A program made the translations under genes and the position numbers. Shown here one piece after another: positions 1,724 through 25,121 of a stretch of 56,596 nucleotides of DNA. This stretch comes from a virus (Duplodnaviria; Caudoviricetes), in IMG/VR virus record IMGVR_UViG_3300027977_001210, positions 1-56,596 of that record; one strand, given 5' to 3'. Below the pieces are notes generated by a model. It was not told the origin of the DNA. It was given only the letters and a program-made list of their open reading frames with translations, and made no database searches. How positions within the stretch are numbered: the first letter of the stretch is position 1; each line of letters opens with the position of its first letter.

Positions 1724-4700
1724 TATGTTCTCCCTACTGCTATTTCGACCAATCCAATATGATCTGAATCATAGTCTTTGATTGCTTTGCCTACCACGGT
1801 ACCTACTCGGATATCTCCGCTAGCAGCCACAGCCACTCCGGGAATACCTGAAGTTATCAATATGTCACCTTTGCGGATCTTGCCCACTACCTTGCAGGGC
1901 ACACGTCCTTGTAAGGCTATGAGATTTTTCAATCCCGGACAGGCTTCATACATGGTATAAGCCGCAGTGTTTGAAACTACCCCAGCTACTCTTGTATCGC
2001 CTTTTGTGTCTGTGGTGGTGACTTCTTTGTCACCACCAAACACTAACACTGTGCCCACTTCATAGTCTCGATCACCTTCATAGTTTTCTGCCAAGTCTGC
2101 TGCATATGTAGCCTGCATTCTTGATACCCCAGATAACGACCACTGTCCGATAATAGTGCCTGCTGATGTATTACCGCCTGCAGTGAGGGTGGTGGCCGCC
2201 ACGCTGCTGCAAGTGATCGGAGCTAGAGCGCCGCCGCTCTGAGTTTTAAACTCATGAAAATTGTTCCAGTATTGAGTTTTCTTGTCAGCAGATACACTGC
2301 TGTCATTAATAAACATAGCAGCATTAGACGTCCAGCCGTAGTAGCCTACGTATCCGATAAATCCTGCGCCAACACCTTTTACAGCTAATTTGGTATCTCC
2401 AACGGTGCCTGGACCAACATAAAGCTCCCGTATAGATACGTTCCTACCACCGAAATCACCATTTACGTCTCTAGCGATCAGTTCAGAAACTCCTACAGCA
2501 GTAGGTAACCCTGCACTGGAGTTTATAATACTGTAGTCAACGTCTGCTACATTGCTGACACCACTGATACGTTTCAAGAAACCTGCACTGCTATATTGTG
2601 ATTTCTTTATGCCTAATCCTTCATCTATAACAGTACTAAATGCCACGGCACTTGGAGTAGCAGAAACTATTGTTGAATTGCCCACTAGGGTATCTGGAGC
2701 CATTGCTGCCAACTTACTGATTTGGATAGCAGCAGTGGCACTTACATCTGCGTTGACTATGCTGCTAGCTAGATTCAATTTACTATAGGCAATAGCAGCA
2801 GTAGCACTTACATCTGCGTTGACTATACTGCTAGCTAGATTCAATTTACTGTAGCTAACAGCGGCAGCAGCATTTATATCTGCGTCAATGATCGAGCCAG
2901 CTACAATCTGCGCATTGACTGTATTCAATGTAGAATCAACACCAGTAGCAAGATCGAAAGTAATGTCTCCAGTGACTCTTGCGTTTAATATATCGTTGCC
3001 AACTCCCGTGAACAGTAAGACATCTGCCGCCTGAATATTATTCAGCGAAATGCCCTGTATGTTATCTAAAGTCAGACTTTGTAAGTTAACTGCATCACCA
3101 CCTGACACAGGATCGTCTAGATTAATAATTCTGTTGTTGCCTAGATTCATAGCAGCCTTCATGGCTAACACACCATTTAATGCCATGAACCCACCAATAT
3201 TGGCAGGAATAAGTGTTGACAGATCACCAATTCCGGAACCGTCTGCAAGTGTGCCCAGTCTACGTTGAACATGTAGTGCAACAGCATTTTCTGTTGGCAC
3301 TGTGTCAGTTCTCAGTGCAGCCATGCTGGATTCAATCGAGAATTCCGAAACAGTAACTCCTCGTTTGAACCCAATACCGTCTAGATTACTCAGAGCTATC
3401 TGCGCTGCAAAGGTCACGGTACCTGTGCCTTGATCCACCTTGAAGAATGGACCCACTTTGAAATTACCAAATTGATCAGTGGTTACATAAAATACTCTGC
3501 CTACGTCACGTTCTAGTACTTCAGTAGATTCATCAGCAGGGTTTACAGGACCTCCGAAAATCTCGTTAGGGTAATTGGTATCAGCATATGATCCTGTACC
3601 AATTTCCAGCAGGTCGTGCCCAGTAACACGAGTCAGTGCAATACGAATAGTAAGTGTACCCTGTGCTCCGTTAGATCTCGGAGGTACGGCAGATCGTATG
3701 GTGTACATACCTTCGTATGAAATGATACTGGCAACCAATGGTCTGTTTAAGGTTATTCTGCCATAGGGTTGATTGGTTACTGCTTCTGGTTCATACAAGG
3801 TAATTACATATTCCTCACCTAGATATATGAATCTGCTGTTGTTAACTCTGGATGTGTCGCTGGGACCTACTGCCACGACTGCAAAGTTGGAATCGCCCGC
3901 ACGTCCAGATACCAATCCTACTCGAGCATCCACAAATGATCCACCGGTAACTGTTTGTGCAGTTCCGCCTGGAATTTCACTTAGCTGAAAAGCAGTCGCA
4001 GTCAATCCCGGTGCAATAACATGATAATGAATATTTTTACTCAGTCCAGCTGGCAGATCTATTGCAGAAGTTGATGTAGTGAATTTAATCACATTACCAA
4101 CACTAAATCCGTGTGCTGCTGTAGTGTTGATCAATGCAGTTCCTGATGTGTTTATTGAAGAAACTTCAGTGCCAGTCGGCGCTGCGCCGATAAACTCACC
4201 GGGTTGACGTATTGATAAATCTACGTAATCATAATTTTCTCGAAGATCGGTCTTGGTTAATCCTACCATGGCATAACTATGAACGCCACTGCCAGCTGTG
4301 CCCGTGTTAATTACATTGCCGTTTTTAGTTAACGATATTGAAAATTGGGTATCAGTTAGACCAGTACTAACAACATAATAGGTCTCTGGGGTGATAAGAC
4401 CCAGAGGTAATGTGCCTGTGGTAGTAATTGTTATGGTGTAATTTTCTAACAGTTTGTGGGTCTTGATGCCTTTGATAGTTAATGCAGTACCATCAACTAG
4501 AGTAAACACACTGCCACCTAATGTGGCACTTACAGTAAATTGATTATATTCAGGAACACTTATAATAAAGTAAGTGGTACCGCTGATAAAGTTGTTGGCC
4601 GTTGAAGTTGGTATAAACTTATCACCAATTTTTAGTTTATGATTCTGTGATGTTGTACAAACGTTTGTGGCGATATCAGTAACAGTTGCCAAGACCTGCA

Positions 4701-7700
4701 ACACAGCTGGAGAGGCATTACTAATAACAACTTCATATGGACCATTGAGGTCTGTATATGCTATAAATTCCAAAACACGATAGACAGTGTTGGCAGTTTC
4801 ACGTAGTTTCAGACCAGTCGATGGTCTTACAGCTACATCTTCAAGACTACCAGTTAATATAATCTGAGCCTTAGATCTCAGAGTCATCACAGTGTTATCG
4901 GGAACTACAGCTTCAAGGCCACCAGTTTGTGTAGTTACACCTTCCCCAAGATTTAGTCTTACTACTCCGGATGGATAGGTCTCTGATGTAGTGACAGCGG
5001 TGATAGGATATCGAAATACAGTAGGAAGTCCAGCAATTACATGTATAATTTCTAATTCACTAGAGTTTAATGGTATGTAGTCGTAGCCATCTACATAGAT
5101 AAACAATCCGTTCGCGGTATTAGCGAATCCCGCACTAGGAAAAAAGCATCGAACTTTCTGTGCAAGATCTTCAAAAACATCCGTAGGAGTTGGAATTTCT
5201 AAAGGATCAGCACCTTCTGCTACCAAGGCATAGATACCGTGAGCACTAGAGCCTGCGACTGAGCGTATCTGTCCACCGTTGATAGAATAATATGATGTAT
5301 AACAGTAATAAGTGAATATAGACACAGCTTCGATCAAACCACCATTTGTGGTTACTATTCCATAGCCCATATCGTTGATCTGTGTGTAGTCGTTGCCCAG
5401 CATGGATCTATTACCAGGCATTAGCAATTCATAGGTTCTTTGATAGCTGATAGTACCAGATCCGGGTGCAGTCACATTAACCGCAGTGATTGAGCCAAAG
5501 GTGCCTGTGATCTTGAAAGTGTTGTTACTTAATCCATCTGCCAGCACATAGTATTCTATACCAGCTGAGATTCCTGTGGGCAAAGATACTGTGCTGGAAA
5601 ATTGTAGTATAGCACCAGCCTGTAATCTATGATCTACTCTCGTAACCACAGCAGGAGACGCTGTGCTAATGGTACAGGTCTGAGAACCAGCAGTAACCAA
5701 GAAAGGCGAGCCATCGTCGACCACAAAAGTGGCTGAGCTGCCTGTTGTTGAATATACATAGTCTCGAACATAGTTTACTCTGAACACTGTGTCGTTGACC
5801 AAGAAACTGGCGGGCAGTTGAGGTAATCGATCCAGTCCGGTAACATTTAGTCTAGTACCTGTGACAATATCTACACCAGTTGTAGTAGAGGCATGTTTGA
5901 ATTGAAGGTTGCCTACGAATCCATCTACAAACATACCACCGGCAAATGTTTGAGCATTTATGCTCTTTGAGAATGATGCGCATTCTTGAGCATATGGAGA
6001 TTTAGCTAGTATCTGTCCAGCAGGATCAAGGGTTAACATGAACCCGCCGTGACCCTGTGCTGTAATAGCCTGCCAGCGCACCGCATCATTGGCTAGGAAC
6101 ACATCTAGTTGATCATTTTCTTTGGGATAGTTTACGCTACCGCTACCATCCATGACATCTTTTAGTGCTGCAATCAATGCGCTAACCACTGTGATCGATC
6201 CTGGTTCTGGGGAATAGGCAAGATCGATTATCTGCAGATATGCTGTTTGACTGGGAACAACAGCAGCATTAGATAGAACATTACCTATCAAGAAGTCCAA
6301 TCTAGTAATTGCCGCAAGTGTCTGTGACAATTGTGCGCCAATTGCGATCAGTCCGCTGGCACTTTGATAGTATTTCAATCCCGCAGATATAGTTCGATTA
6401 TATTCACTGTATCTAAGATCAAAAGTCAAGGCATCAATTATCAATCCAAGATCACGTTTACACAGTAGAGAATTATAAACGAATGTGCTGGTAAATGGTG
6501 CTATATTAGCTGATATCTGAGTATCAATCCATGCTATAACTTCATTCTGTAAAAACTCTCTGTTAAGATCAATCAACTCCGCGGCTGCACGATATCCGCC
6601 TTTGTTATCAACCTTGGGATATACTGGCTGAGAACTGTTCTGTAGATAGTGATAGCCATAGAGATTACTAGCCACAGTCAACCCATCTATGGTTATGTCT
6701 CTACGGAATTTGTTAAAAGCCCATGGGCTGGAACTGGTGCCTACTCTAGGTCTGATGATACAGCGTCTAAACTCATCTCCGACTATGGAAGTATTCTGAG
6801 GAACTTTTAATGGATAGTTTTCTTCGTAGATTCCGCTTTCTAAATTAATGGTAATGTGTATACGTTTACTAACGTCACCAAAGGAAATATTTTCTCCTAA
6901 TTCAAAATTACCATATTTGATATCAACATCAAATATTTCGTTACCTGAACTATCTAGAGCTCCTGAATGAGCCAATATCTGGGCCAAGGCCCCTGATGTT
7001 TCTCCAAACAAATACAGTCCTTCACGAATGTCTCTACCACGCAACGCCTCAGCAGTGTTGGTTAACACATCTCCGGTCGAATCAGTTCGATATCCATCGG
7101 TTCGAATTAGAAATCTTGGAAGATTTACCAACAGAGAGGGTATCGAAGTAAATCCTGTGCCACCGTCAGTGATAGATATATTAGTAATCACTCCAGCAGT
7201 AACCACCGCGAATCCAAAGGCTCCCACGCCTCCACCACCTGTAGCCCTAACGCTAACCAACCCATAACCTGTACCACCAGAAGTTATTGCGACTGAACTT
7301 ACCTTGTAAGTGATATTAAATGACGCAAGAACTCCAATAGGACCTACACCAACAGGTGCCGCAGAAGTAGTAATAGTTGTGGCCACTGCAGTGGCACCGG
7401 GTAATGTAGCGTACCCACCTGCAGAAATGATTCTAAATGTAGATATACCTCCCGGTGTTGTAATTGTAGTCAACACTTCTATTGTAGCTATGCTAGTTCC
7501 AGCGCCGCCGACTAGGCTTAATATATCTCCTGGATAGTAATTGACTCCGATGCTGTTTAAGGTCAATGTGCTTACAGCCATTCTCAGGGTACCTGCAAAC
7601 CCACTACCAGAACTAGGAGCAGCATTATCCTTATCTATCAAGGTACACTTAGAAACACCGTTATTGTATGTTAGTACTTTTCTGTAAGGACCGATTTCTT

Positions 7701-8484
7701 CACGTGCTTCTAATACCAATTCTTCTGCACGTTTCAGTGCAGCTTCTAGGGTCCTATAGGCATAGGCGAGAGCACGTCCCTGCAGAGCCTTTGAGGTTCC
7801 TGGTCTGTCGTCACTGCCGCTCAACGCCACATATAAATTTGATACACTGCCAAATGCCGAAGAATCTACATATTGTTTAGTTGCTGCGATTAATCCACCA
7901 TATGTAACATCATCATCAGGTTCAGGACTACGCGACAGAACTAATGGTCCACTCATGGTGCCAAATGATCCGTCTACTAGACCTGTTTCGGGGTTGATGG
8001 CTGAGGTGCCTGCACGAGCTATCTTGGAATCTGTATAGGCTTTATTGACTAATTCATGTTTGAAGATCGGAGTTAACGGTGATATTGTTGTTCCAGCATC
8101 TATGATTCTATACTGATTGCCGCCTGATCGCAGAGACAGATTTCCACCAAGCTGTGGAGCAGTGTCGCCTACTATTGCTGAGAAATCCGAACTTAAAATA
8201 ATTTCATTTGGGTTAGAGGCAAAGTCTAGACTAATACCTATTCCTGGAGATAGTTTTTTAAAAGCAAGTCCAGTTTCAGTGCTGTTTACTACTACAAATT
8301 CATTTTCTTGTCCTACATAAGTAGAGGGTGTATCATCTAAACCAATAAAGGTAAGATTTTCACCTAGTCCAAGCGAACTGTAGAGTTCACGAAAGTTGTC
8401 GTTGACCTTGCGGAACGAATCTCTTATGCTATCACCAGTGCCATCATTGCCGATAGCACCAATATCAATTGTCTTTCTTGCCAT
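1723..8484 (-). CDS. Giant (2253 aa) baseplate/tail-associated structural protein
   Basis: N-terminal IGAIGNDGTGDSIRDSFRKVNDNF motif like T4 gp9/gp10-type baseplate proteins; beta-rich middle; C-terminal YAADLAENY...GRVPCKVVG...VVGKA resembling an intramolecular-chaperone/peptidase G2 domain. Confidence 0.8.
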   Translation of the reverse strand: MARKTIDIGAIGNDGTGDSIRDSFRKVNDNFRELYSSLGLGENLTFIGLDDTPSTYVGQENEFVVVNSTETGLAFKKLSPGIGISLDFASNPNEIILSSDFSAIVGDTAPQLGGNLSLRSGGNQYRIIDAGTTISPLTPIFKHELVNKAYTDSKIARAGTSAINPETGLVDGSFGTMSGPLVLSRSPEPDDDVTYGGLIAATKQYVDSSAFGSVSNLYVALSGSDDRPGTSKALQGRALAYAYRTLEAALKRAEELVLEAREEIGPYRKVLTYNNGVSKCTLIDKDNAAPSSGSGFAGTLRMAVSTLTLNSIGVNYYPGDILSLVGGAGTSIATIEVLTTITTPGGISTFRIISAGGYATLPGATAVATTITTSAAPVGVGPIGVLASFNITYKVSSVAITSGGTGYGLVSVRATGGGGVGAFGFAVVTAGVITNISITDGGTGFTSIPSLLVNLPRFLIRTDGYRTDSTGDVLTNTAEALRGRDIREGLYLFGETSGALAQILAHSGALDSSGNEIFDVDIKYGNFELGENISFGDVSKRIHITINLESGIYEENYPLKVPQNTSIVGDEFRRCIIRPRVGTSSSPWAFNKFRRDITIDGLTVASNLYGYHYLQNSSQPVYPKVDNKGGYRAAAELIDLNREFLQNEVIAWIDTQISANIAPFTSTFVYNSLLCKRDLGLIIDALTFDLRYSEYNRTISAGLKYYQSASGLIAIGAQLSQTLAAITRLDFLIGNVLSNAAVVPSQTAYLQIIDLAYSPEPGSITVVSALIAALKDVMDGSGSVNYPKENDQLDVFLANDAVRWQAITAQGHGGFMLTLDPAGQILAKSPYAQECASFSKSINAQTFAGGMFVDGFVGNLQFKHASTTTGVDIVTGTRLNVTGLDRLPQLPASFLVNDTVFRVNYVRDYVYSTTGSSATFVVDDGSPFLVTAGSQTCTISTASPAVVTRVDHRLQAGAILQFSSTVSLPTGISAGIEYYVLADGLSNNTFKITGTFGSITAVNVTAPGSGTISYQRTYELLMPGNRSMLGNDYTQINDMGYGIVTTNGGLIEAVSIFTYYCYTSYYSINGGQIRSVAGSSAHGIYALVAEGADPLEIPTPTDVFEDLAQKVRCFFPSAGFANTANGLFIYVDGYDYIPLNSSELEIIHVIAGLPTVFRYPITAVTTSETYPSGVVRLNLGEGVTTQTGGLEAVVPDNTVMTLRSKAQIILTGSLEDVAVRPSTGLKLRETANTVYRVLEFIAYTDLNGPYEVVISNASPAVLQVLATVTDIATNVCTTSQNHKLKIGDKFIPTSTANNFISGTTYFIISVPEYNQFTVSATLGGSVFTLVDGTALTIKGIKTHKLLENYTITITTTGTLPLGLITPETYYVVSTGLTDTQFSISLTKNGNVINTGTAGSGVHSYAMVGLTKTDLRENYDYVDLSIRQPGEFIGAAPTGTEVSSINTSGTALINTTAAHGFSVGNVIKFTTSTSAIDLPAGLSKNIHYHVIAPGLTATAFQLSEIPGGTAQTVTGGSFVDARVGLVSGRAGDSNFAVVAVGPSDTSRVNNSRFIYLGEEYVITLYEPEAVTNQPYGRITLNRPLVASIISYEGMYTIRSAVPPRSNGAQGTLTIRIALTRVTGHDLLEIGTGSYADTNYPNEIFGGPVNPADESTEVLERDVGRVFYVTTDQFGNFKVGPFFKVDQGTGTVTFAAQIALSNLDGIGFKRGVTVSEFSIESSMAALRTDTVPTENAVALHVQRRLGTLADGSGIGDLSTLIPANIGGFMALNGVLAMKAAMNLGNNRIINLDDPVSGGDAVNLQSLTLDNIQGISLNNIQAADVLLFTGVGNDILNARVTGDITFDLATGVDSTLNTVNAQIVAGSIIDADINAAAAVSYSKLNLASSIVNADVSATAAIAYSKLNLASSIVNADVSATAAIQISKLAAMAPDTLVGNSTIVSATPSAVAFSTVIDEGLGIKKSQYSSAGFLKRISGVSNVADVDYSIINSSAGLPTAVGVSELIARDVNGDFGGRNVSIRELYVGPGTVGDTKLAVKGVGAGFIGYVGYYGWTSNAAMFINDSSVSADKKTQYWNNFHEFKTQSGGALAPITCSSVAATTLTAGGNTSAGTIIGQWSLSGVSRMQATYAADLAENYEGDRDYEVGTVLVFGGDKEVTTTDTKGDTRVAGVVSNTAAYTMYEACPGLKNLIALQGRVPCKVVGKIRKGDILITSGIPGVAVAASGDIRVGTVVGKAIKDYDSDHIGLVEIAVGRT
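2726..2850 (-). repeat. Near-perfect 66-bp tandem duplication (YSKLNLASSIVNADVSATAAI x2)
   Basis: 2726-2784 and 2792-2850 are nearly identical at nucleotide level. Confidence 0.9.
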
Positions 8485-18767: not shown

Positions 18768-19304
18768 TTACTGCGTAGGCTCTTCAATTGGTTCATCAAA
18801 ACAAAGACTTTCCATGGTCTTGTAATGTTCGTAGGCTTTTTTAAGTGCTTCAAACTTTTCAAGTTTCTTTGGGTCAGGTACAAGTATGGCCAGCCGTTGT
18901 TCCACCTTCTTCATAAACTCTTTTAGACTTTGACCACCAACCGTAATATCAGTACCTGCTGCCATGTCGATACCGGTGGCACTGATATTAACTGTATTAG
19001 GAGTGATAGTGTTGTTAAGTGTATAACCTGTAGTCCATTGACTATTGTTGGTAATATTACCAATAGTAGTGATACCGCCAACAGTTGCACCAGACCCATT
19101 GTAGGTAAAGGTATTGCTACTACTTGGAAAAGTAATGGTATCTGAACTATACATATTACTAGTATCTATGGTGATGGTATCATTGCTGCCACTGTAACTG
19201 ACGTCACCGTAGTCGGGAGGAACGGCACCGTAACCGAAATCCAAGGTTACGGTATCGGTACTGGTAGTTGAGACAGTGTTAGACTTTGGCTTCTTTGCGG
19301 GCAT
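18768..19304 (-). CDS. Hypothetical protein with Thr/Ser-rich N-terminus
   Basis: Co-oriented ORF; helical C-terminus (RLAIL...LKKAYEHY). Confidence 0.7.
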   Translation of the reverse strand: MPAKKPKSNTVSTTSTDTVTLDFGYGAVPPDYGDVSYSGSNDTITIDTSNMYSSDTITFPSSSNTFTYNGSGATVGGITTIGNITNNSQWTTGYTLNNTITPNTVNISATGIDMAAGTDITVGGQSLKEFMKKVEQRLAILVPDPKKLEKFEALKKAYEHYKTMESLCFDEPIEEPTQ

Positions 19305-19470
19305 TTTTTTCTTCTGTGATTTCGTTGCGGCGAGTTTTAACCGCCTTACCTACTTCTTGAAGAGCTTTGCGAGCACGAGTACCTGCGGCGTTGTTACCAG
19401 CTGCGAATTTTGCATCTTCGGTTAAAAATTCTTCCATTGCTGATTTGAGTTGTTCTACTGTTGTTGACAT
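19279..19470 (-). CDS. Histone H1-like Hc1-family small basic protein
   Basis: KFAAGNNAAGTRARKAL motif; AAGGA Shine-Dalgarno. Confidence 0.7.
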   Translation of the reverse strand: MSTTVEQLKSAMEEFLTEDAKFAAGNNAAGTRARKALQEVGKAVKTRRNEITEEKNARKEAKV

Positions 19471-19512
19471 AATGTTTTCCTTAAGTTATGTTAATCTACT
19501 TATCGTAGTAAT

Positions 19513-19623
19513 TGGTGTGGTCGGTAGGTTTCGAACCTACAAAGGCTACGAACTACGTCAGCGCCCCGTCCCCATTCTGGACTATGGGTCCAGCGGGAGC
19601 TTTGCCAATTTGCTCACGACCAC
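19513..19623 (-). tRNA. Atypical 111-nt tRNA-like RNA (Leu-type body, remodelled anticodon arm)
   Basis: 7-bp acceptor GTGGTCG/CGACCAC + A + CCA; D arm AGC-AAATTGGCAAA-GCT; T arm GTAGG-TTCGAAA-CCTAC; long variable arm; expanded anticodon region. Confidence 0.85.
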
Positions 19624-19629
19624 AAGTAT

Positions 19630-19658
19630 AGTATATAACCTTATTTTTTTAAATGCAA
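19630..19658 (-). promoter_or_regulatory. sigma70 promoter of the tRNA-like gene
   Basis: TTGCAT-17 nt-TATACT; first base of the acceptor stem lies 7 nt after the -10. Confidence 0.75.
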
Positions 19659-19709
19659 GAGATATCTGTGTTAAATACTAGCATATTATGAACAAATTGG
19701 AAATTAAAT

Positions 19710-20081
19710 ATGCTTGAGCATCTACATTTATTGGTGCAAGGCACATCAACAAACTTGTTATCTGAATTTGATATCAAAAACTTTATTCTAGATTTAATTC
19801 AAAAGATTGATATGGATATACTAGGTGGCCCACACATCTATCGTTCGGATATCAAAGGAAACGAAGGTTATACTGCAATTACCGCTATAACAACAAGTCA
19901 CGTTGTTATCCACACATGGGATACTGGATTGATACAACTAGATGTTTACAGTTGCAAAAAATTTGATATTTTAGATATTGTGGAGCCGTTAAAGACACTT
20001 TCTATTACGGATATAAAAATCAAATTCCTCGATAGGTCAAACGGTTTTAGAAATATTGAAATTCCGGGGAACGACCAATGA
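19710..20081 (+). CDS. speD: S-adenosylmethionine decarboxylase-family proenzyme
   Basis: G.T...ITTSHVVIHTW...QLDVYSCK.F pyruvoyl-enzyme motif; TAAATA at 19672-19677. Confidence 0.8.
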   Translation: MLEHLHLLVQGTSTNLLSEFDIKNFILDLIQKIDMDILGGPHIYRSDIKGNEGYTAITAITTSHVVIHTWDTGLIQLDVYSCKKFDILDIVEPLKTLSITDIKIKFLDRSNGFRNIEIPGNDQ

Positions 20082-20608
20082 TTTGGATATTTGGAGACAG
20101 CTTTGCTTCAAGCGGTCAAGATTTGTCATGGACTAGTATTATTGGAGATACTCAAAATTTTGCATCTAACGGCAGCAGCGAATATCGTATTTTAAAAAAT
20201 TATCTTTTACAGAAATCAAATATCAAAGAAACTGATCTAGTATTATTTGTGCATACTTCCCAAAGTAGAATATTTTTAAAAGATGATCGAGAGCTGTCAA
20301 GCAGAATGTTGTCATCGCATGCAGCATGCGATATTATTTTTAACGATGTGTTTGAAAAAAAAGAAAAACAGTATATCGAGATTTTAGAATCAATATGGGA
20401 TGACGAATTCTTTAATGACATCTTTAATCTAATGGTTGACAAGCTACTCAGAGTTCCAAACAGCTATCATTTAACTTTTTTTGAATCACCACGCACTGAA
20501 CTGGTTAATTTAAATCACATATGGTTAAACAATCAAGGAGAAATTAATCATATGAATGCAACCGGTAATCAACTTGTGGCTGATTATGTTAAGCAGTTAA
20601 AGCGTTAA
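20078..20608 (+). CDS. SGNH/GDSL-like protein
   Basis: IFGDSF block I; C-terminal NHMNATGN. Confidence 0.6.
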   Translation: MIWIFGDSFASSGQDLSWTSIIGDTQNFASNGSSEYRILKNYLLQKSNIKETDLVLFVHTSQSRIFLKDDRELSSRMLSSHAACDIIFNDVFEKKEKQYIEILESIWDDEFFNDIFNLMVDKLLRVPNSYHLTFFESPRTELVNLNHIWLNNQGEINHMNATGNQLVADYVKQLKR

Positions 20609-21755
20609 GTAATCTAGTTTCAAATTCTCTAAAGTATTCTGCATCAGCAATTGCCGGAGCGCACCCACTTATACTGTATTTGACATCTGGGCCACCAGTC
20701 AATCCATGTTTAACATACGTGTCGGCGGTTATAGGTGTAGTAAGTTTATAAGAAAAGATCAAACCAATAACTACACAATCCCTAACCAATCCCATTGCTG
20801 TTAGTTTTGCACCTAGCATTGTTAGTTTATCTTCGATCTCAAGAATTTTTTTGCTGTCAAATATTTCCCACACTGCTAATGCAGCTCCAACACCCGCCAT
20901 ATTTGGTTGCCAGGTATGACCGTAGTCCCATTTGTCCTTAATTACATCTGATATGCGTTCAACAGCACAGGCACAGCTTAGTGGACTAAATCCGCCAGTT
21001 AATGCTTTACCTAATGCTACTATGTCCGGCTGCACTCCGTAACGTTCTTGACTAAATTTGTAACCCAGCTTTCCCATACCGCCCATTACATCATCAACAA
21101 TTAAGTTAACTCCATATTCTGTACAAATATTGCGAATGTCTTGCCACCATTTTAAACTCCAAGGACGTATACTTGCCGCCCACGGGATTGATTCCATAAT
21201 AATAGCACCAACAGTATTATCAGTTTCCAATACTTGTTTAACACGATTAAATGCTATTTCTTCGTGTGTTTCTCTATCTTCTATCTTCCACCATTCGGGA
21301 GCACCTAGTACCGTAACATTAGGCATGGTTTCCTCACCTCGAAATGCGCGACATAGATATGTTGCTCCGTGGTATCCCGGTGAAAACGATACTATAGTTG
21401 TTCGAGTTGGATCAACTTGACGCCAGTAATGACTATTCATAGCAACTGCACATTCAACCCCGTCGGTACCACTTATTGCATACCCAACTCCTGTAAAATT
21501 ACCTTCTTTGCAGAGCAACGCTACTAGTGTGTCGTTGGCTTGGCACACTTCGTTATGTTTGAAATTGAGATATGCTAATTGACGTTGTTGTTCGTACATG
21601 CGGTTTAAGATAATCTCATTATCATATCCGTAGATAAATGACATATTACCGCAGATGGTATCTAACAGTTTACCGTGATTGGTATGTATCCAATAACCTT
21701 CTGTTTTAAAAACCTCAGTAACCACTTCTTCAGTAGTTTTAAAATTTAACTCCAT
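20589..21755 (-). CDS. Class III PLP aminotransferase
   Basis: SGTDGVE, GYHG, IIMES, VDDVMGGMGKLG, PDIVALGKALTGG, GHT. Confidence 0.9.
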   Translation of the reverse strand: MELNFKTTEEVVTEVFKTEGYWIHTNHGKLLDTICGNMSFIYGYDNEIILNRMYEQQRQLAYLNFKHNEVCQANDTLVALLCKEGNFTGVGYAISGTDGVECAVAMNSHYWRQVDPTRTTIVSFSPGYHGATYLCRAFRGEETMPNVTVLGAPEWWKIEDRETHEEIAFNRVKQVLETDNTVGAIIMESIPWAASIRPWSLKWWQDIRNICTEYGVNLIVDDVMGGMGKLGYKFSQERYGVQPDIVALGKALTGGFSPLSCACAVERISDVIKDKWDYGHTWQPNMAGVGAALAVWEIFDSKKILEIEDKLTMLGAKLTAMGLVRDCVVIGLIFSYKLTTPITADTYVKHGLTGGPDVKYSISGCAPAIADAEYFREFETRLLNALTA

Positions 21756-22841
21756 TTAAAATCCTAATTTATTTAATACTCTGTCTTTAAATGAAAGTTC
21801 ATCACTTCGCCCCATAGTTGCAAAATAATCACGCATTTGTTTTTTGTAAACATTTTGAAACTCTTTTTGTATATATGGATTGTAGTTGTCTTCTTGAATG
21901 TGATTATAATCATATTGTATACGTTGAGCTAGTCTGCTTTCAACCCCGCCTAATCGCCTGTGCAAGGTAATACTGTTATCAAATAAACATAAATCATTAT
22001 CGTTTTGATACCAATGATCGTATGTGTACTCTGGTACAAACAACTCTTTTGCAATACGTTCAAACACACTGTCTGAATCCTTTTTGCTCATACCTTCGAT
22101 GGATGACATTGTATGTACACTAAAATGCAGTCCTTTGTGGCCGCCCGGGCTACGCATTACCATAGGAACTCTTGAGTCATCGACAGGACACATATTTTTA
22201 TAAATGATCATGTCTTGCTCTTTACGCAATCCTGGATTTATTTTCCCCGGTGCAAATCGATGTAGGACAACCATTTCGTCTAGCTCACTGCGGAAGCTCT
22301 CACTTTGTTTTTCATACCAATCCACAGTGGTCATAAAACCTGTTGAGCTACCAACCATTCCGGTTTCGCCCAACAACGATACACCCGGCGTGAATAATAA
22401 ATTACCAGACTCATTGCTGTGCCATAATAACTCGCCTTCAGCAAATAGACCAACTGGTTCGCCGTACTCATTTTTCTTGCCTGTAACTTTTAACAATGCC
22501 AGTGGTCGGCCTTGTTCATCTGTTTCTAATAAAGGACGCAAGAACTGCAACCACTTACTATCTTCCTCTCCTACTTGTGCATTTGAGTTAAGTGCTTCAA
22601 TTGGAGTAATATGATGTTTCTTTGTAAAATAGTAAGATGCAGTGTCTCTAGGAGTCCCCCATTTACCAATTTGTTCAATGTATCTTTTTTTAGTAAGATT
22701 AGTGTTTCGTATAATTGTAACTAGACTGTTTAGGTGTAGTTTGCCAATTTCCAACCATTCTTCGTCAGTGATGTGATCAAAGTCTACATTGTCTACAAAT
22801 GCTCCAAATCTTCCTAGTCCCGGTATTTTGCTAATTTTCAT
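21756..22841 (-). CDS. TauD/TfdA-family 2OG dioxygenase (start probably 22841)
   Basis: GAFVDNVD, WHSNE, HWYQNDNDLCLFDNSITLHRR, RLAQR. Confidence 0.8.
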   Translation of the reverse strand: MKISKIPGLGRFGAFVDNVDFDHITDEEWLEIGKLHLNSLVTIIRNTNLTKKRYIEQIGKWGTPRDTASYYFTKKHHITPIEALNSNAQVGEEDSKWLQFLRPLLETDEQGRPLALLKVTGKKNEYGEPVGLFAEGELLWHSNESGNLLFTPGVSLLGETGMVGSSTGFMTTVDWYEKQSESFRSELDEMVVLHRFAPGKINPGLRKEQDMIIYKNMCPVDDSRVPMVMRSPGGHKGLHFSVHTMSSIEGMSKKDSDSVFERIAKELFVPEYTYDHWYQNDNDLCLFDNSITLHRRLGGVESRLAQRIQYDYNHIQEDNYNPYIQKEFQNVYKKQMRDYFATMGRSDELSFKDRVLNKLGF

Positions 22842-22843
22842 AA

Positions 22844-23467
22844 TTATTCCTTTACTTTTAATAGCAGTCCGCAAATTAAACTATAACGTGTAACATTGGA
22901 CTTGTTGTAACCTTCGTGCCATGCTGTATGATCGTTGATATGTAATACACCGTTACCAAATGTGTTGTTTATCCTTAGTGGATCATCAAACTTGTTGCTA
23001 GTATAATATACCGTTGATTGATCTGGATCATCTTCCTCAACAAAATATATCATAGCGGTCGCAATCTGTAATCGTGTATCTATGTGTAACGGTATATGGA
23101 ATCCGGGTTGGTCTCTATTAAACATGCAACCCCAAAACGTATACTGGAGCATCTGTTCCTTACTCCACCCTTCCCATAAACTACTTATATAGTCACCTTG
23201 TGCTTCGTATACAAAGTTGACAAGTTGCTCTTTTACACTATTTGAATTTACAAACTCCATAATATCTTTCAACACCTGGCTTTTTGGATTTAAAAGGCCA
23301 GACCGTTGTGCATACGGATTCCCTGACAATCCCGCATCTTCCTTCCTATCAGCGTGTGCTTGCCAATCTTCTGAATCTAATGCGTTTATAATGGTAGCAT
23401 AGTCGTAATCTAGCGATACCGTTAGCTCATACAGTCCAGGACGTAGTAAATTAATAGTCAAGTTCAT
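22844..23467 (-). CDS. Fe(II)/2OG oxygenase
   Basis: HID...WHEG...RYS. Confidence 0.7.
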   Translation of the reverse strand: MNLTINLLRPGLYELTVSLDYDYATIINALDSEDWQAHADRKEDAGLSGNPYAQRSGLLNPKSQVLKDIMEFVNSNSVKEQLVNFVYEAQGDYISSLWEGWSKEQMLQYTFWGCMFNRDQPGFHIPLHIDTRLQIATAMIYFVEEDDPDQSTVYYTSNKFDDPLRINNTFGNGVLHINDHTAWHEGYNKSNVTRYSLICGLLLKVKE

Positions 23468-23964
23468 TTAAATACCGACATTTCAAATAATAATATATCT
23501 GGCTTTGCTAGTTCTATAGAGTTAACTACATAGTCACAGCAGTTATCCCAAGTGGTATGATCGTTGCCATCTCCAAACTTTATCAAGTACATCTTAGGAT
23601 TAAGAGCATTTTTAGATATTAATTCCCAGTGTTTGTTTTCAAGTAGAATCTTTTGTTTTTTATATTCGGCATCCTTGGCTTCAAACGCTGATAATGTAAC
23701 ACATGTGCTGACATTGATAATTTCTTTGTTGGTTCCAATCCAATGGTTCCATACTTGTTCTAATAATACGATTTGTAAAACTGGCAAATACAAACAATTT
23801 ACAAATATATCACAGGGCAGTATAGCATCCACTATAGAGTTGATATTGTTAAAATCATAACCTAACGAGCGTGAAATATCGATTACCGTATGGCCGCGTT
23901 TAGTATAAGCCTTTGCAATACTCTGCCCGACTGATGAAGTTCCGCCCGTTATTGCTATTTTCAT
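23464..23964 (-). CDS. Short SDR-like NAD(P)-binding protein
   Basis: KIAITGGTSSVG, DIFVN, IINVS, YxxxK. Confidence 0.7.
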   Translation of the reverse strand: MKIAITGGTSSVGQSIAKAYTKRGHTVIDISRSLGYDFNNINSIVDAILPCDIFVNCLYLPVLQIVLLEQVWNHWIGTNKEIINVSTCVTLSAFEAKDAEYKKQKILLENKHWELISKNALNPKMYLIKFGDGNDHTTWDNCCDYVVNSIELAKPDILLFEMSVFK

Positions 23965-25121
23965 AAATTTAATAGATCTAACTTTGACTTATCGGGATTG
24001 CGATTAAACAGATATCGTGCTGGAGGAGTATCAGGTAACGGAATGTTCTGATTCTTAAATACATCTCTACGAATAATCTGATGTAGGAAGTTTGTTATGC
24101 CGTCTGGCACAAAATTGCACCAAGGACCGCTACGTAATTCTTCCATGTCTATATTGGTTTCATCGCACCACGCTATTAATCTAACAACTTTATCATCTAT
24201 TTTTACCATTACATGATAGATATTATTGTCTGCTTGTATAATGCGTTCAAAAATCTTGCCATGATCGTTGCACCACTTCTCGACACGTTTATATAGATTG
24301 CTAACAAATGGTTGTTCTGAACTGGCGTTGCGGCCAATCTCTGCTCCGCACCTAATGCGAAAATTCTTTGGGGTCCAAGGGTTACTTGTAATCTCAGTTA
24401 AGATATAATCTAACTCGCTGAAGTCAACCATGGTATAACTTATGTAACCTATCCTGACATTTTCGCGATGCATATTTTCAATAGCACTTATTTGTTTACG
24501 TCTTACTGTTTCGTGGTCAATGTAACTTGGATGATTAAGACCTATGTTAACTCCGGTAAGTCCTGCGGCCACACACTGATGACCAAAATCGCTATCATTG
24601 AACCTTAGCCCGTTAGTCATTACACTTACATTCATTGAAGGGTGAATGTTTCGTATTGCTGTAACCAATTCTGGAAAGTCTTTACGCAAGGTACTTTCGG
24701 CGCCGGCAAGGATAATTCTATGTACTCCATTATCACCCACAGGCATGGCTCGTATTTGATTGAGCAATTCTTCTATAGAAGGGTCACGGGTATCATTCTC
24801 TGGTAAATGGTAACAATGCGGGCACTCTAAGTTACAACGGTCACTACCTTCAATAAGAACTCCGCCATTAAAATTAAACTCTGGATTATCCTGAGTATAA
24901 TACAGGTTAGCGTAAAACTCATAATCAGCTTCAATCATGTGATGGCTGACACCGTGTATAGGACACGCCTTGGCAATAAACACTTGATTGTCTTTGTGGT
25001 AACGCCACGCAGGAACATGCCTATGGCACTGATGGCAAAGACTCACAGTAGGATCTAACTGAATTCCAGTAATACCAGCAAGTATCCTATCTATGTTGGA
25101 AGAATTAAATCCTAGTAGCAT
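23961..25121 (-). CDS. Radical SAM protein with N-terminal CxxC...CxxH metal site
   Basis: CNLECPHC; SLCHQC...KACPIHG; MTNG. Confidence 0.88.
   Translation of the reverse strand: MLLGFNSSNIDRILAGITGIQLDPTVSLCHQCHRHVPAWRYHKDNQVFIAKACPIHGVSHHMIEADYEFYANLYYTQDNPEFNFNGGVLIEGSDRCNLECPHCYHLPENDTRDPSIEELLNQIRAMPVGDNGVHRIILAGAESTLRKDFPELVTAIRNIHPSMNVSVMTNGLRFNDSDFGHQCVAAGLTGVNIGLNHPSYIDHETVRRKQISAIENMHRENVRIGYISYTMVDFSELDYILTEITSNPWTPKNFRIRCGAEIGRNASSEQPFVSNLYKRVEKWCNDHGKIFERIIQADNNIYHVMVKIDDKVVRLIAWCDETNIDMEELRSGPWCNFVPDGITNFLHQIIRRDVFKNQNIPLPDTPPARYLFNRNPDKSKLDLLNL

What the first reader, a model, noticed from the sequence alone, without database searches (positions are those of the whole stretch)
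19513..19623. tRNA-Leu-like RNA whose anticodon arm is replaced by a probable pseudoknot hiding a CAT triplet
Seen: intact acceptor, D and T arms, encoded CCA, A discriminator, A15/U48-type positions and a long variable arm. The anticodon region instead reads CCCG-CTGGAC-CCATA-GTCCAG-AATGGGGA-CGGG. The inner hairpin can be drawn as a 5-bp stem with 7-nt loop CCCATAG (CAT central, no U33), and CCCAT is exactly complementary to the ATGGG just downstream (H-type pseudoknot). It has its own sigma70 promoter whose predicted start coincides with the mature 5' end. Known: bacterial LeuRS relies on A73 and tertiary shape rather than the anticodon. Inference: a chargeable but non-decoding tRNA mimic, such as a decoy for anticodon nucleases, an aminoacyl donor for the adjacent enzyme island, or a ribosome/RelA modulator.
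Basis: partly seen in the sequence, partly recalled or inferred. Interest (0 to 1): 0.85.

Follow-up and report, generated by a model that had tools for sequence, protein, structure and literature searches.

The report
Phage leucine-tRNA look-alike lacking an anticodon
Giant lake-water phages carry a well-conserved small RNA that matches a leucine tRNA in every part except the arm that reads codons, so it most likely acts as a tRNA look-alike and not as a decoder.

Summary
The feature is real. It lies on the minus strand at 19513-19623 and is 111 nt long. It is not a decaying pseudogene. The family is absent from 185,579 cellular species genomes and matches no Rfam family above threshold.

All members keep these tRNA parts:
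- a 7-bp acceptor stem, A73 and an encoded CCA;
- a leucine-type D loop;
- a T arm;
- a long variable arm.

The anticodon arm is replaced by an 8-11 bp irregular hairpin with an unconserved cap: GNRA in 33 of 54 distinct sequences, YYATA in this window's subtype. Covariation supports the acceptor, T, variable and replacement arms.

It does not covary, and it clashes with two helices that do.

A conserved sigma70-type promoter places the transcription start at G1. A histone-like Hc1 gene follows about 43 nt downstream. Related 94-282 kb records hold one copy each, well away from a cluster of 27-34 normal tRNAs.

Best reading: a non-decoding tRNA-Leu mimic, probably chargeable by LeuRS. Its downstream role is unknown.

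The parts
19513..19623 (-). tRNA-Leu-like RNA, 111 nt including the encoded CCA
   Evidence: Sequence read. Model R1 scores it 96.9 bits, E 2.8e-21. It is the only copy in the window.
19653..19658 (-). -35 element TTGCAT
   Evidence: TTGnnn is conserved at this spacing in relatives.
19630..19635 (-). -10 element TATACT, at -12..-7 relative to G1
   Evidence: The spacer is 17 nt, and the predicted start coincides with RNA position 1.
19617..19623 (-). acceptor stem, 5' strand GTGGTCG
   Evidence: Pairs with 19517-19523. In relatives the 1:72 pair is GC 53, GU 1, AU 1 and the 5:68 pair is UA 54, UG 1.
19598..19614 (-). D arm AGC-AAATTGGCAAA-GCT with A14, A15, G18, G19 and A20a
   Evidence: The loop is identical to that of a related phage's tRNA-Leu(CAA). 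These positions are invariant in 55 of 55 sequences.
19571..19597 (-). replacement for the anticodon arm: CCC(G)/(U)GGG base, AA bulge, 6-bp helix CTGGAC/GTCCAG and CCATA loop
   Evidence: The helix covaries across relatives (helices 3 and 4).
19566..19570 (-). 5-nt linker GACGG
   Evidence: The linker is 5 nt by the way delimited the arm, and it ends in GG in most members.
19544..19565 (-). long variable arm: base GGC:GCC, internal loop, GAC:GTT and GTA triloop
   Evidence: helices 5 and 6 covary. L033 has a fully paired 9-bp version.
19524..19540 (-). T arm GTAGG-TTCGAAA-CCTAC
   Evidence: One compensatory U:A to C:G change is seen in 2 sequences.
19513..19523 (-). acceptor stem 3' strand CGACCAC, discriminator A73 and encoded CCA
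   Evidence: A73 and CC are present in 55 of 55 sequences and the final A in 54 of 55.
19496..19508 (-). small hairpin CTAC-GATAA-GTAG in the spacer, containing the conserved ATAAGTA
   Evidence: Conserved, with changes in its stem, across the 58 distinct downstream sequences. No terminator-like site was found.
19279..19470 (-). 63-aa histone H1-like (Hc1) gene, 42 nt downstream on the same strand
   Evidence: Pfam PF07432, E 9e-15. It lies downstream of the RNA in 108 of 119 loci.

Best explanation
This is one member of a large, phage-only family of roughly 103-110-nt RNAs (CCA included) derived from a type-II leucine tRNA.

What selection keeps and what it changes:
- The 'top half' is kept: acceptor stem, A73-CCA, the U8/A14/A15/G18G19/A20a D loop, U48 and the T loop.
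- A long variable arm is kept.
- The anticodon arm has been exchanged for a generic, roughly twice-as-long hairpin. Only its pairing is conserved, not its loop.

How it is made (inferred): it is transcribed from its own sigma70-type promoter starting at G1, so it would need no RNase P cut. No terminator separates it from the Hc1-like gene, so it must be released by 3' processing.

How it acts (inferred):
- It cannot decode on the ribosome.
- It acts through the tRNA-Leu features it retains, as a non-decoding mimic that host LeuRS can probably charge and that other tRNA-handling proteins can bind.
- Whether the leucylated or the uncharged form is the active one, and what its target is, remain open.

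Shown: family membership, structure, covariation, the promoter, synteny and the absence of an anticodon loop.
Inferred: transcript ends, charging and mode of action.
For: Size and distribution of the family:
- There are 54 distinct sequences, 55 with L184.
- In a sample chosen through the neighbouring Hc1 protein and not through the RNA, 79 newly fetched loci gave: 68 with the exact acceptor, 5 with a changed acceptor, 1 cut by a contig end and 5 without the RNA. The 5 changed acceptors are U5:A68 to U.G once, G1:C72 to G.U twice and the compensatory A1:U72 twice.
- It is virus-only: 0 matches in genome contigs for the full pattern. The 3' half gave 1 match, with no ARAGORN tRNA call there.

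Structure:
- 99.5% of cells form standard pairs, against 91.3 +/- 0.4 in shuffles.
- 12 pairs change on both sides, against 6.2 in shuffles; 0 of 500 shuffles reach the observed values.
- Slid controls give 24-50% paired.
- The replacement arm folds as a single hairpin in 54 of 54 distinct sequences, and its cap is GNRA in 33.

Leucine character:
- U8, A14, A15, G18G19, A20a, U48, the T loop, A73 and CC are present in 55 of 55 sequences.
- These are the E. coli leucine identity elements, and variants without the anticodon and variable arms stay active (PMC9976931, section 12, passages read; PMC2377443, abstract).
- The four best canonical matches to model R1 are all tRNA-Leu, three from related phages and one from T4 (45.8, 37.6, 36.9 and 33.9 bits). 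tRNA-Tyr comes next.
- The D loop equals that of phage tRNA-Leu(CAA) or (UAG).

Genomic setting:
- One copy per record in G000-G004. In G001, G002 and G003 a cluster of 27, 34 and 29 canonical tRNAs lies about 28-36 kb away.
- Acceptor stems of the canonical tRNA-Leu and tRNA-Tyr genes differ among G001-G003. The tRNA-like acceptor does not.
- The promoter is conserved.

Weak evidence: contigs from four RNA libraries lie on the RNA and the Hc1 gene. One 94-nt contig spans exactly 19513-19606 with no differences, and no joint is reported inside the RNA.
Against: - No charging, end-mapping or binding data exist.
- The D stem is weak in most members (U12.C23; only 2 Watson-Crick pairs). This could hinder LeuRS.
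- The acceptor and T loop were fixed by the search pattern for 50 of the 55 sequences, so their invariance rests on the protein-anchored sample alone.
- Alignment A2 was fitted to the model's structure, which favours that structure.
- 5 of 79 relatives lack the RNA and keep the promoter and the Hc1 gene, so it is dispensable in some lineages.
- No terminator separates it from the Hc1 gene, which also fits a cis role.
- No phage-encoded partner was found: no L/F-transferase, CCA-adding enzyme or class Ia synthetase in five records that are all incomplete.
- The RNA-library contigs may contain DNA.
Confidence: 0.55

Rival explanations
1. It is a cis-acting module of the Hc1-like transcript. The tRNA-shaped 5' element would serve as a processing signal or 5' stabiliser for the downstream mRNA, with no role of its own in trans.
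For: - The Hc1-like gene is on the same strand and about 41-46 nt downstream in most of the 108 of 119 loci that have it.
- No terminator-like site lies between them.
- A conserved hairpin sits in the spacer.
- In the 4 loci L187 and L198-L200, which lack the RNA, a similar -10 sequence stands directly before Hc1.
- An RNA-library contig spans both features (X19 record 28). This does not prove a single transcript.
Against: - A stabiliser or cleavage signal would not need an invariant A73-CCA, A14/A15/G18G19/A20a, U48 and T loop in 55 of 55 sequences.
- Nor would it need a covarying long variable arm.
- With transcription starting at G1 there is no 5' leader for RNase P to remove.
Confidence: 0.15
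2. It is a decoy or sponge for host immunity that attacks tRNAs outside the anticodon, such as enzymes that cut or modify the CCA tail or the acceptor stem, or that recognise long-variable-arm tRNAs. An abundant early RNA would then protect the phage's own tRNA set.
For: - These phages invest in 27-34 tRNA genes.
- The RNA keeps exactly the parts such enzymes would see: the acceptor stem with CCA, the elbow and the variable arm.
- The promoter is sigma70-type and host-like, so the RNA could be made early.
- Defences that cut tRNA tails are in print (PMC12851939; only the title and the start of the abstract were seen in a search listing).
Against: - No defence system or host is known for these phages.
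- A general decoy would not need the leucine-specific D-loop set.
- A single gene copy would have to out-titrate the whole tRNA pool.
- A decoy for anticodon nucleases specifically is unlikely, because the loop is not conserved.
Confidence: 0.15
3. It is a decoding tRNA after all. Either the inner hairpin of this subtype is read as a 5-bp stem with the 7-nt loop CCCAUAG (anticodon CAU), or an insert is spliced out.
For: - Type-A members can be drawn with loops CCCAUAG, CUCAUAG (with U33) or CCUAUAG.
- Other phage tRNA-Leu-like genes do carry intron-like inserts beside an intact anticodon loop.
Against: - Positions 32 and 38 are C and G and would pair, which leaves a 5-nt loop.
- The arm has 10 pairs plus a bulge, where a tRNA has 5 pairs.
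- 33 of 54 distinct relatives have GNRA tetraloops.
- ARAGORN in default mode of 54. In intron mode it of 54, with 7 different anticodons.
- RNA-library contigs show the unspliced sequence and no joint.
Confidence: 0.03
4. It is a decaying tRNA-Leu pseudogene or a leftover phage attachment site.
For: - Standard detectors do not call it.
- The D stem is weakened in most members.
Against: - It is conserved in hundreds of contigs with compensatory changes.
- It has its own conserved promoter.
- There is a single copy at a fixed place.
- No cellular tRNA shares its 3' half.
Confidence: 0.01

Closest known systems
Bacterial and phage type-II tRNA-Leu
   Same: - 7/5 acceptor/T architecture, A73-CCA and a long variable arm.
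- U8, A14, A15, G18G19, A20a, U48 and the T loop.
- The D loop is identical to phage tRNA-Leu(CAA) in this window's subtype and to tRNA-Leu(UAG) in most others.
- The best canonical hits of model R1 are tRNA-Leu.
   Different: - No 5-bp anticodon stem or 7-nt loop. An 8-11 bp irregular hairpin with a variable cap stands in its place.
- The variable arm has about 9-10 layers, which I recall to be longer than in ordinary tRNA-Leu.
- The D stem is weakened in most members.
- It lies alone with its own promoter, far from the tRNA cluster.
- It falls below the Rfam tRNA threshold: 23 and 26.5 bits against 29, and nothing for this window.
Phage T4 species 1 RNA (rnaC), a stable RNA of unknown function
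   Same: - It is phage-encoded and about 139 nt long.
- It has a canonical T arm (CCGGG-UUCGAAU-CCCGG) and an acceptor-like terminal stem.
- Two internal hairpins occupy the places of the anticodon and variable arms.
- Its function is still called unknown (PMC9697503, passage read).
   Different: - No D arm, mismatches in the terminal stem and no encoded CCA.
- It lies inside the T4 tRNA cluster.
- Model R1 does not hit it at E<=1, so homology is not shown.
- It is reported as a late RNA (PMC9697503).
tRNA-like domain of tmRNA
   Same: A chargeable acceptor/T-arm module with no anticodon, from which a long irregular helix emerges.
   Different: - G3:C70 here, not the alanine G3:U70 pair.
- No tag reading frame or pseudoknots in 111 nt.
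- ARAGORN's tmRNA mode and Rfam find nothing.
- The G3:U70 rule is recalled, not taken from a call.
Bacterial Y RNA-like YrlA (RF02553)
   Same: A non-coding RNA that mimics the tRNA elbow (PMC4201824; only the title and the start of the abstract were seen).
   Different: - No Rfam YrlA match was found in the window or in the family members tested.
- As I recall it, in YrlA the RNA's ends lie in a Ro-binding stem. Here the ends are a normal acceptor stem with CCA.
Other phage tRNA-Leu-like genes with 19-47 extra nucleotides in the anticodon region (seen here, apparently undescribed)
   Same: - A leucine-type D loop.
- 7/7 acceptor pairs in 31 of the 43 clusters, and A73 in 35.
- Not called by default ARAGORN.
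   Different: - Several keep an intact CTTAA or CTTAG loop split by an inserted hairpin, so they may be intron-bearing decoders.
- The focal family has no such loop.
- The sequences are unrelated to the focal family.

Membership tests
canonical decoding tRNA | 7-bp acceptor stem, 5-bp T stem with a T-psi-C type loop, and G18G19 in the D loop | tested here: met
canonical decoding tRNA | 5-bp anticodon stem with a 7-nt loop (U33, anticodon, purine 37) | tested here: not met
   The arm has 8-11 pairs. Its caps are GNRA (33 of 54), YYATA and others. ARAGORN of 54 in default mode, and the intron-mode calls are inconsistent.
canonical decoding tRNA | scores above the Rfam RF00005 gathering score (29 bits) or is called by ARAGORN | tested here: not met
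   Window: no match even at E<=10. Relatives score 23 bits and 26.5 bits.
substrate of bacterial LeuRS (tRNA-Leu identity set) | discriminator A73 with a CCA end | tested here: met
   A73 in 55 of 55 and CCA in 54 of 55 sequences. The identity set is taken from PMC9976931, section 12.
substrate of bacterial LeuRS (tRNA-Leu identity set) | hinge elements U8:A14, A15:U48, G18G19 with U55C56, and A20a | tested here: met
   All are invariant in 55 of 55 sequences.
substrate of bacterial LeuRS (tRNA-Leu identity set) | is actually leucylated | not testable with these tools
   This needs in vitro charging or acid-gel analysis.
tmRNA | tag reading frame, pseudoknots and alanine identity | tested here: not met
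   The RNA is 111 nt and has G3:C70. ARAGORN -m finds nothing and Rfam finds nothing.
intron-bearing tRNA | removing one contiguous insert gives the same canonical anticodon arm in all relatives | tested here: not met
   No joint was seen in RNA-library contigs.
T4 rnaC-like stable RNA | sequence and structure homology to rnaC | tested here: not met
   Model R1 does not hit T4 rnaC or rnaD at E<=1. Only the overall layout is alike.
any Rfam 15 family | match at or above the gathering score | tested here: not met
   for the window, and for five members of subtypes A-D.

The most novel reading that the evidence does not exclude
The RNA is a dedicated off-ribosome leucine carrier or tRNA-Leu impostor. 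Host LeuRS would charge it, but no ribosome can use it. The phage would then either feed a tRNA-dependent transferase or jam or divert a host system that senses or attacks tRNA-Leu-type molecules. If so, it would be a new class of viral aminoacyl-RNA effector. The many other insert-bearing phage tRNA-Leu genes would be related cases.
Probability: 0.25. Interest if true: 0.9.

Novelty: new variant of a known kind. Interest (0 to 1): 0.7.

Why it matters
Phage tRNAs are currently read as codon-usage helpers or as replacements for tRNAs that host defences destroy. A widespread RNA that keeps every leucine-tRNA feature except the ability to decode points to a use of tRNA shape or charging outside translation. 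It is under selection and appears in lake RNA libraries.

It also offers a second example beside T4's species 1 RNA, whose function a 2022 paper still calls unknown (PMC9697503). With hundreds of natural variants, this one is much richer for comparison.

The family is missing from Rfam and invisible to tRNA finders. It is therefore left unannotated in viral metagenomes, and a covariance model would fix that.

Tried and rejected
Searches and checks that gave nothing or were set aside:
- blastn of the RNA region against 50,697 phage records found no match. Of the 4.1-kb neighbourhood, only thyX matched.
- RNAalifold on the plain MAFFT alignment A1 was uninformative, because the variable arms are misaligned. 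It proposed a GYYC:GGGC helix that conflicts with the variable-arm base. I used a hand-given structure, a covariance model and a re-alignment instead.
- A pattern for a variant followed by a T run, suggested by loose ends in the read laying, found nothing.
- TATAAGTA is not enriched in the window: 2 matches against 3.6 expected. I dropped the idea that the spacer motif is a general late promoter.
- PHROGs and Pfam on the neighbours gave no tRNA-related enzyme.
- Family searches in five related records found no L/F-transferase, CCA-adding enzyme or class Ia synthetase. All five records are incomplete, so this is not proof of absence.
- The single genome-contig hit for the 3' half (L121) got no ARAGORN tRNA call.
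- The 127-nt sequence of L038 was dropped from all family counts as unrelated.
- L184 did not fit my parsing pattern. It was added by hand.

Read laying:
- The four RNA runs left 19720-20076 without cover, and cover between 18955 and 19260 was thin. I draw nothing from that.
- Depth is per contig and cannot rank genes.

Literature:
- Four searches looked for a described equivalent and found none.
- This covers only the held open-access library, and supplements were not seen.
- I saw these papers only as search listings: PMC4201824, PMC5389517 and PMC12851939.
- I read passages of PMC7824862 and PMC5852040. They were not relevant.
Full report
**What is there**

The finding lies on the minus strand. 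The reverse complement of window 19513-19623 is a 111-nt sequence with these parts:
- a perfect 7-bp acceptor stem (GTGGTCG/CGACCAC);
- U8;
- a D arm, AGC-AAATTGGCAAA-GCT;
- a 27-nt stretch, CCCGCTGGACCCATAGTCCAGAATGGG;
- a 5-nt linker, GACGG;
- a 22-nt variable arm;
- TTT;
- a T arm, GTAGG-TTCGAAA-CCTAC;
- A73 and an encoded CCA.

ARAGORN finds no tRNA or tmRNA in the whole window. Rfam 15 gives nothing at gathering scores, and nothing for this region even at E<=10. Only a relaxed ARAGORN run forces a 'tRNA-Pro with a 15-nt intron'. The combined acceptor/G18G19/T-loop pattern occurs once in the window and in none of 100 shuffles.

**It is a family**

These gave 50 distinct sequences of 103-110 nt, CCA included. 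I dropped one unrelated 127-nt hit, L038.

That pattern fixes the acceptor, so I drew a second sample through the neighbouring protein. In all, 427 contigs encode a relative of the 63-aa downstream protein, and the best 80 were kept. The 79 newly fetched loci divide as follows:
- 68 carry the exact acceptor;
- 1 has U5:A68 changed to U.G;
- 2 have G1:C72 changed to G.U;
- 2 have the compensatory A1:U72;
- 1 is cut off by the contig end;
- 5 lack the RNA, and in four of these (L187, L198-L200) a similar -10 sequence stands directly before the protein gene.

No cellular genome holds the family. The full pattern has 0 matches in 185,579 species genomes. The 3' half alone has one match, and ARAGORN calls no tRNA there. 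blastn against 50,697 isolate-phage records found nothing.

The window itself is an IMG/VR record that CheckV rates 16% complete. Related records reach 282 kb at 80% completeness, so these are jumbo phages. DNA runs that hold half or more of the sampled words of the stretch are labelled lake-water metagenomes.

**Structure**

I gave alignment A1 a hand-drawn structure and built covariance model R1 from it. I then re-aligned 55 distinct members to the model and counted pairs.
- 99.5% of 1411 cells form standard pairs, against 91.3 +/- 0.4 in shuffles.
- 12 of 26 pairs change on both sides, against 6.2 in shuffles.
- 90 cells are doubly changed, against 15.7 in shuffles.
- 0 of 500 shuffles reach any of the observed values.
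- Structures slid by 1-3 columns give only 24-50% paired.

Every arm except the two-pair D stem has at least one pair that changes on both sides: acceptor 1, base of the replacement arm 1, its apical helix 4 of 4, variable-arm base 3 of 3, variable-arm tip 2 of 3, and T stem 1.

Two caveats apply. The alignment was fitted to the model, which favours the structure. The pattern fixed the acceptor and T loop for 50 of the 55 rows.

Folded on its own, the stretch that replaces the anticodon arm forms a single hairpin of 6-11 pairs (median 9) in 54 of 54 distinct sequences. Its caps are:
- GNRA in 33;
- CCATA or CTATA in 9;
- TCATA in 2;
- assorted others in the remaining 10.

The variable arm has a 3-bp base (GGC:GCC, also GAC:GTC and others). 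Above that come a 3x3 or 3x4 internal loop, a 3-4 bp tip and an NTA triloop. In L033 the whole arm is Watson-Crick paired over 9 bp.

The D stem is strong in this window's subtype (AGC/GCT). In most members it is only A10:U25 and G11:C24, with a U12.C23 mismatch.

In this one sequence CCCAU:AUGGG is energetically attractive. The single-sequence MFE (-42.2 kcal/mol) uses it as a nested helix together with CC.CUG/CGG.GG. The family consensus fold evaluates to -34.9 kcal/mol. The family does not support it, for three reasons:
- Among the nine type-A variants the A:U pair is lost without compensation in five (AAT becomes AAA, TTA or AGA; sequences, counted by eye).
- The GNRA-capped subtypes cannot form it.
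- It competes with two helices that covary. One is the 5' CCC with the same GGG; its end pair reads CG 47, GU 5, GC 3. The other is the variable-arm base.

So the sequence observation is right and the proposed fold is not conserved. A conformational alternative peculiar to this subtype cannot be excluded.

**Not a decoder, not spliced**

Default ARAGORN of 54 members. With introns of up to 80 nt allowed it of 54, and it gives seven different anticodon readings across His, Pro, Tyr, Ala, Leu and Arg. No single excision restores a common anticodon arm.

Contigs assembled from four metatranscriptome runs lie on the RNA and on the downstream gene:
- One 94-nt contig covers exactly 19513-19606 without a difference. 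It ends at the CCA end.
- One 243-nt contig spans 19373-19614.
- No joint is reported inside the RNA.

These are contigs from RNA libraries and may contain DNA. I count them as a weak hint of expression of the unspliced form.

**Leucine character**

Positions U8, A14, A15, G18, G19, A20a, U48, the TTCGAA T loop, A73 and C74C75 are invariant in 55 of 55 distinct sequences. A76 is present in 54 of 55.

According to the identity review (PMC9976931, section 12, passages read):
- E. coli leucine identity rests on A73, the A15-U48 pair, G18G19, A20a and the D/T-loop contacts.
- Neither the anticodon nor the long variable arm is needed.
- Variants that lack both arms remain active.
- The anticodon arm is needed for editing.

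Related genomes carry clusters of 27, 29 and 34 canonical tRNAs by ARAGORN. Scored with model R1:
- the best canonical matches are tRNA-Leu at 45.8, 37.6 and 36.9 bits;
- T4 tRNA-Leu follows at 33.9 bits;
- tRNA-Tyr comes next.

This window's D loop, AAATTGGCAAA, is identical to that of a related phage's tRNA-Leu(CAA). The majority D loop, GGAATTGGYAGAC, matches tRNA-Leu(UAG).

The acceptor stems of the canonical tRNA-Leu and tRNA-Tyr genes differ among G001-G003. The tRNA-like acceptor is the same in G000-G003 and carries one wobble change in G004. This suggests recognition of its sequence and not only of its pairing.

**Setting**

Each of five records holds exactly one copy. Only 2 of 119 loci have any canonical tRNA within the fetched flanks. 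In G001, G002 and G003 the tRNA cluster lies about 36, 28 and 28 kb away.

Upstream, 62 distinct sequences share TTGnnn, a 17-nt spacer and TATAAT or TATACT at -12..-7 relative to G1. In the window these are TTGCAT at 19653-19658 and TATACT at 19630-19635. The generic scanner chose an overlapping hexamer instead.

Downstream, a small hairpin containing a conserved ATAAGTA is followed by a ribosome-binding site and a 63-68 aa histone H1-like gene (Pfam Hc1, E 9e-15). That gene is present in 108 of 119 loci. A protein of about 173 aa follows in 96 loci, and thyX in 82. No terminator-like site lies in 19200-19900.

The genes upstream of the promoter differ between relatives. They include a SpeD-like gene, an aminotransferase, a TauD-like dioxygenase and, in relatives, radical-SAM and methyltransferase genes. 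A functional tie to that 'enzyme island' is therefore not supported.

**Interpretation**

- Shown: a phage-only, structurally constrained derivative of tRNA-Leu that has lost the decoding arm. It has its own promoter and a fixed genomic place.
- Inferred: transcription starts at G1 and the RNA is released by 3' processing. It is charged by host LeuRS, because every known determinant is kept. Its replacement arm is about twice as long as an anticodon arm and lacks a conserved loop, so it acts away from the ribosomal decoding site.
- Not known: its target.

I rank the downstream roles as follows:
1. An off-ribosome leucyl carrier, or an impostor for LeuRS or other tRNA-binding proteins.
2. A sponge for defences that attack tRNA tails, acceptor stems or long-arm tRNAs.
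3. A cis module of the Hc1 transcript.

No phage-encoded L/F-transferase, CCA-adding enzyme or class Ia synthetase was found in five incomplete records.

**Comparison with known RNAs**

The nearest functional analogue is T4 species 1 RNA (rnaC). It has a T arm, an acceptor-like stem and two internal hairpins. Its function is still described as unknown (PMC9697503). It lacks a D arm and an encoded CCA, and model R1 does not match it.

tmRNA and YrlA fail their defining tests (see the membership table). No Rfam family reaches its threshold on the window or on five members of subtypes A-D.

Four literature searches found no description of this family. They cover only the held open-access library, and supplements were not seen.

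I therefore class it as a new variant of a known kind, tRNA-like non-coding RNAs, and not as categorically new.

**A wider pattern seen in passing**

Default ARAGORN does not of the 118 hits. The 78 that I could delimit fall into 43 sequence clusters. Of these clusters, 31 have 7/7 acceptor pairs and 35 have A73. They carry 19-47 extra nucleotides in the anticodon region by ARAGORN's intron calls, where it makes one.

Several keep an intact CTTAA or CTTAG loop interrupted by a hairpin, which looks intron-like. The focal family is thus the most widespread and most diverged case I saw of a broader tendency of phage tRNA-Leu genes to carry enlarged anticodon arms. I did not find this tendency described either.

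Noticed in passing
L205-L321 (viral contigs): At least 43 sequence clusters of other phage tRNA-Leu-like genes carry 19-47 extra nucleotides in the anticodon region. They have a leucine-type D loop; 31 clusters have 7/7 acceptor pairs and 35 have A73. Default ARAGORN does not call them. Several, such as L217, L252, L306, L249/L305/L316 and L211/L244, keep a CTTAA or CTTAG anticodon loop split by an inserted hairpin, like short introns. The largest cluster has 22 loci (L205 type).
   Followed up: partly
window 19496-19508 (-), and the spacers of L002-L120: A small hairpin containing a conserved ATAAGTA lies between the RNA's CCA end and the Hc1-like start codon, and its stem changes between relatives. 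It is not a terminator, and TATAAGTA is not enriched in the window. It may be a processing or regulatory site.
   Followed up: partly
L143, L187, L198, L199, L200: Five relatives keep the Hc1-like gene but lack the tRNA-like RNA. In four of them (L187, L198-L200) a similar -10 sequence stands directly before the gene. In L143 a different coding sequence lies upstream. The RNA is therefore an accessory insert or a deletion in some lineages.
   Followed up: partly
G001:C1:265950-272250, G002:C1:61390-75260, G003:C1:49316-56767 (L201-L203): Related jumbo-phage records carry clusters of 27-34 canonical tRNA genes with encoded CCA. By ARAGORN's labels they name 19 or 20 of the amino acids. They include an odd 78-nt tRNA-Leu(UAA) with a short variable region and 92-nt 'tRNA-Ile(UAU)' calls.
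   Followed up: partly
window 19513-19544, read laying tables 7 and 8: Several contigs from RNA libraries match only the 32-nt T-arm/acceptor end and then continue with different sequence. One continuation could form a variable arm with a flipped base, GCC...GGC. Further, more divergent family members may exist. Only 30-nt consensus pieces were visible.
   Followed up: no
L038 (IMG/VR contig of 110,716 nt), positions 8-128: A 127-nt sequence has the same acceptor strands but a type-I-like D arm and about 50 extra nucleotides before the T arm. It is another insert-bearing tRNA-like gene, unrelated to the focal family.
   Followed up: no
window 19710-25121: On the far side of the promoter lies a run of metabolic-type genes: SpeD-like AdoMet decarboxylase, class-III aminotransferase, TauD-like dioxygenase and a CxxxCxxC-motif ORF (radical-SAM-like by my reading). 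The set differs between related contigs, so it appears to be a variable accessory island.
   Followed up: partly
window 1723-8484 (-): A 2253-aa open reading frame. It was not analysed.
   Followed up: no
L204 (phage T4, 70908-71171): T4 rnaC and rnaD have no Rfam match at E<=0.1. rnaC folds as a four-way junction with a canonical T arm.
   Followed up: partly
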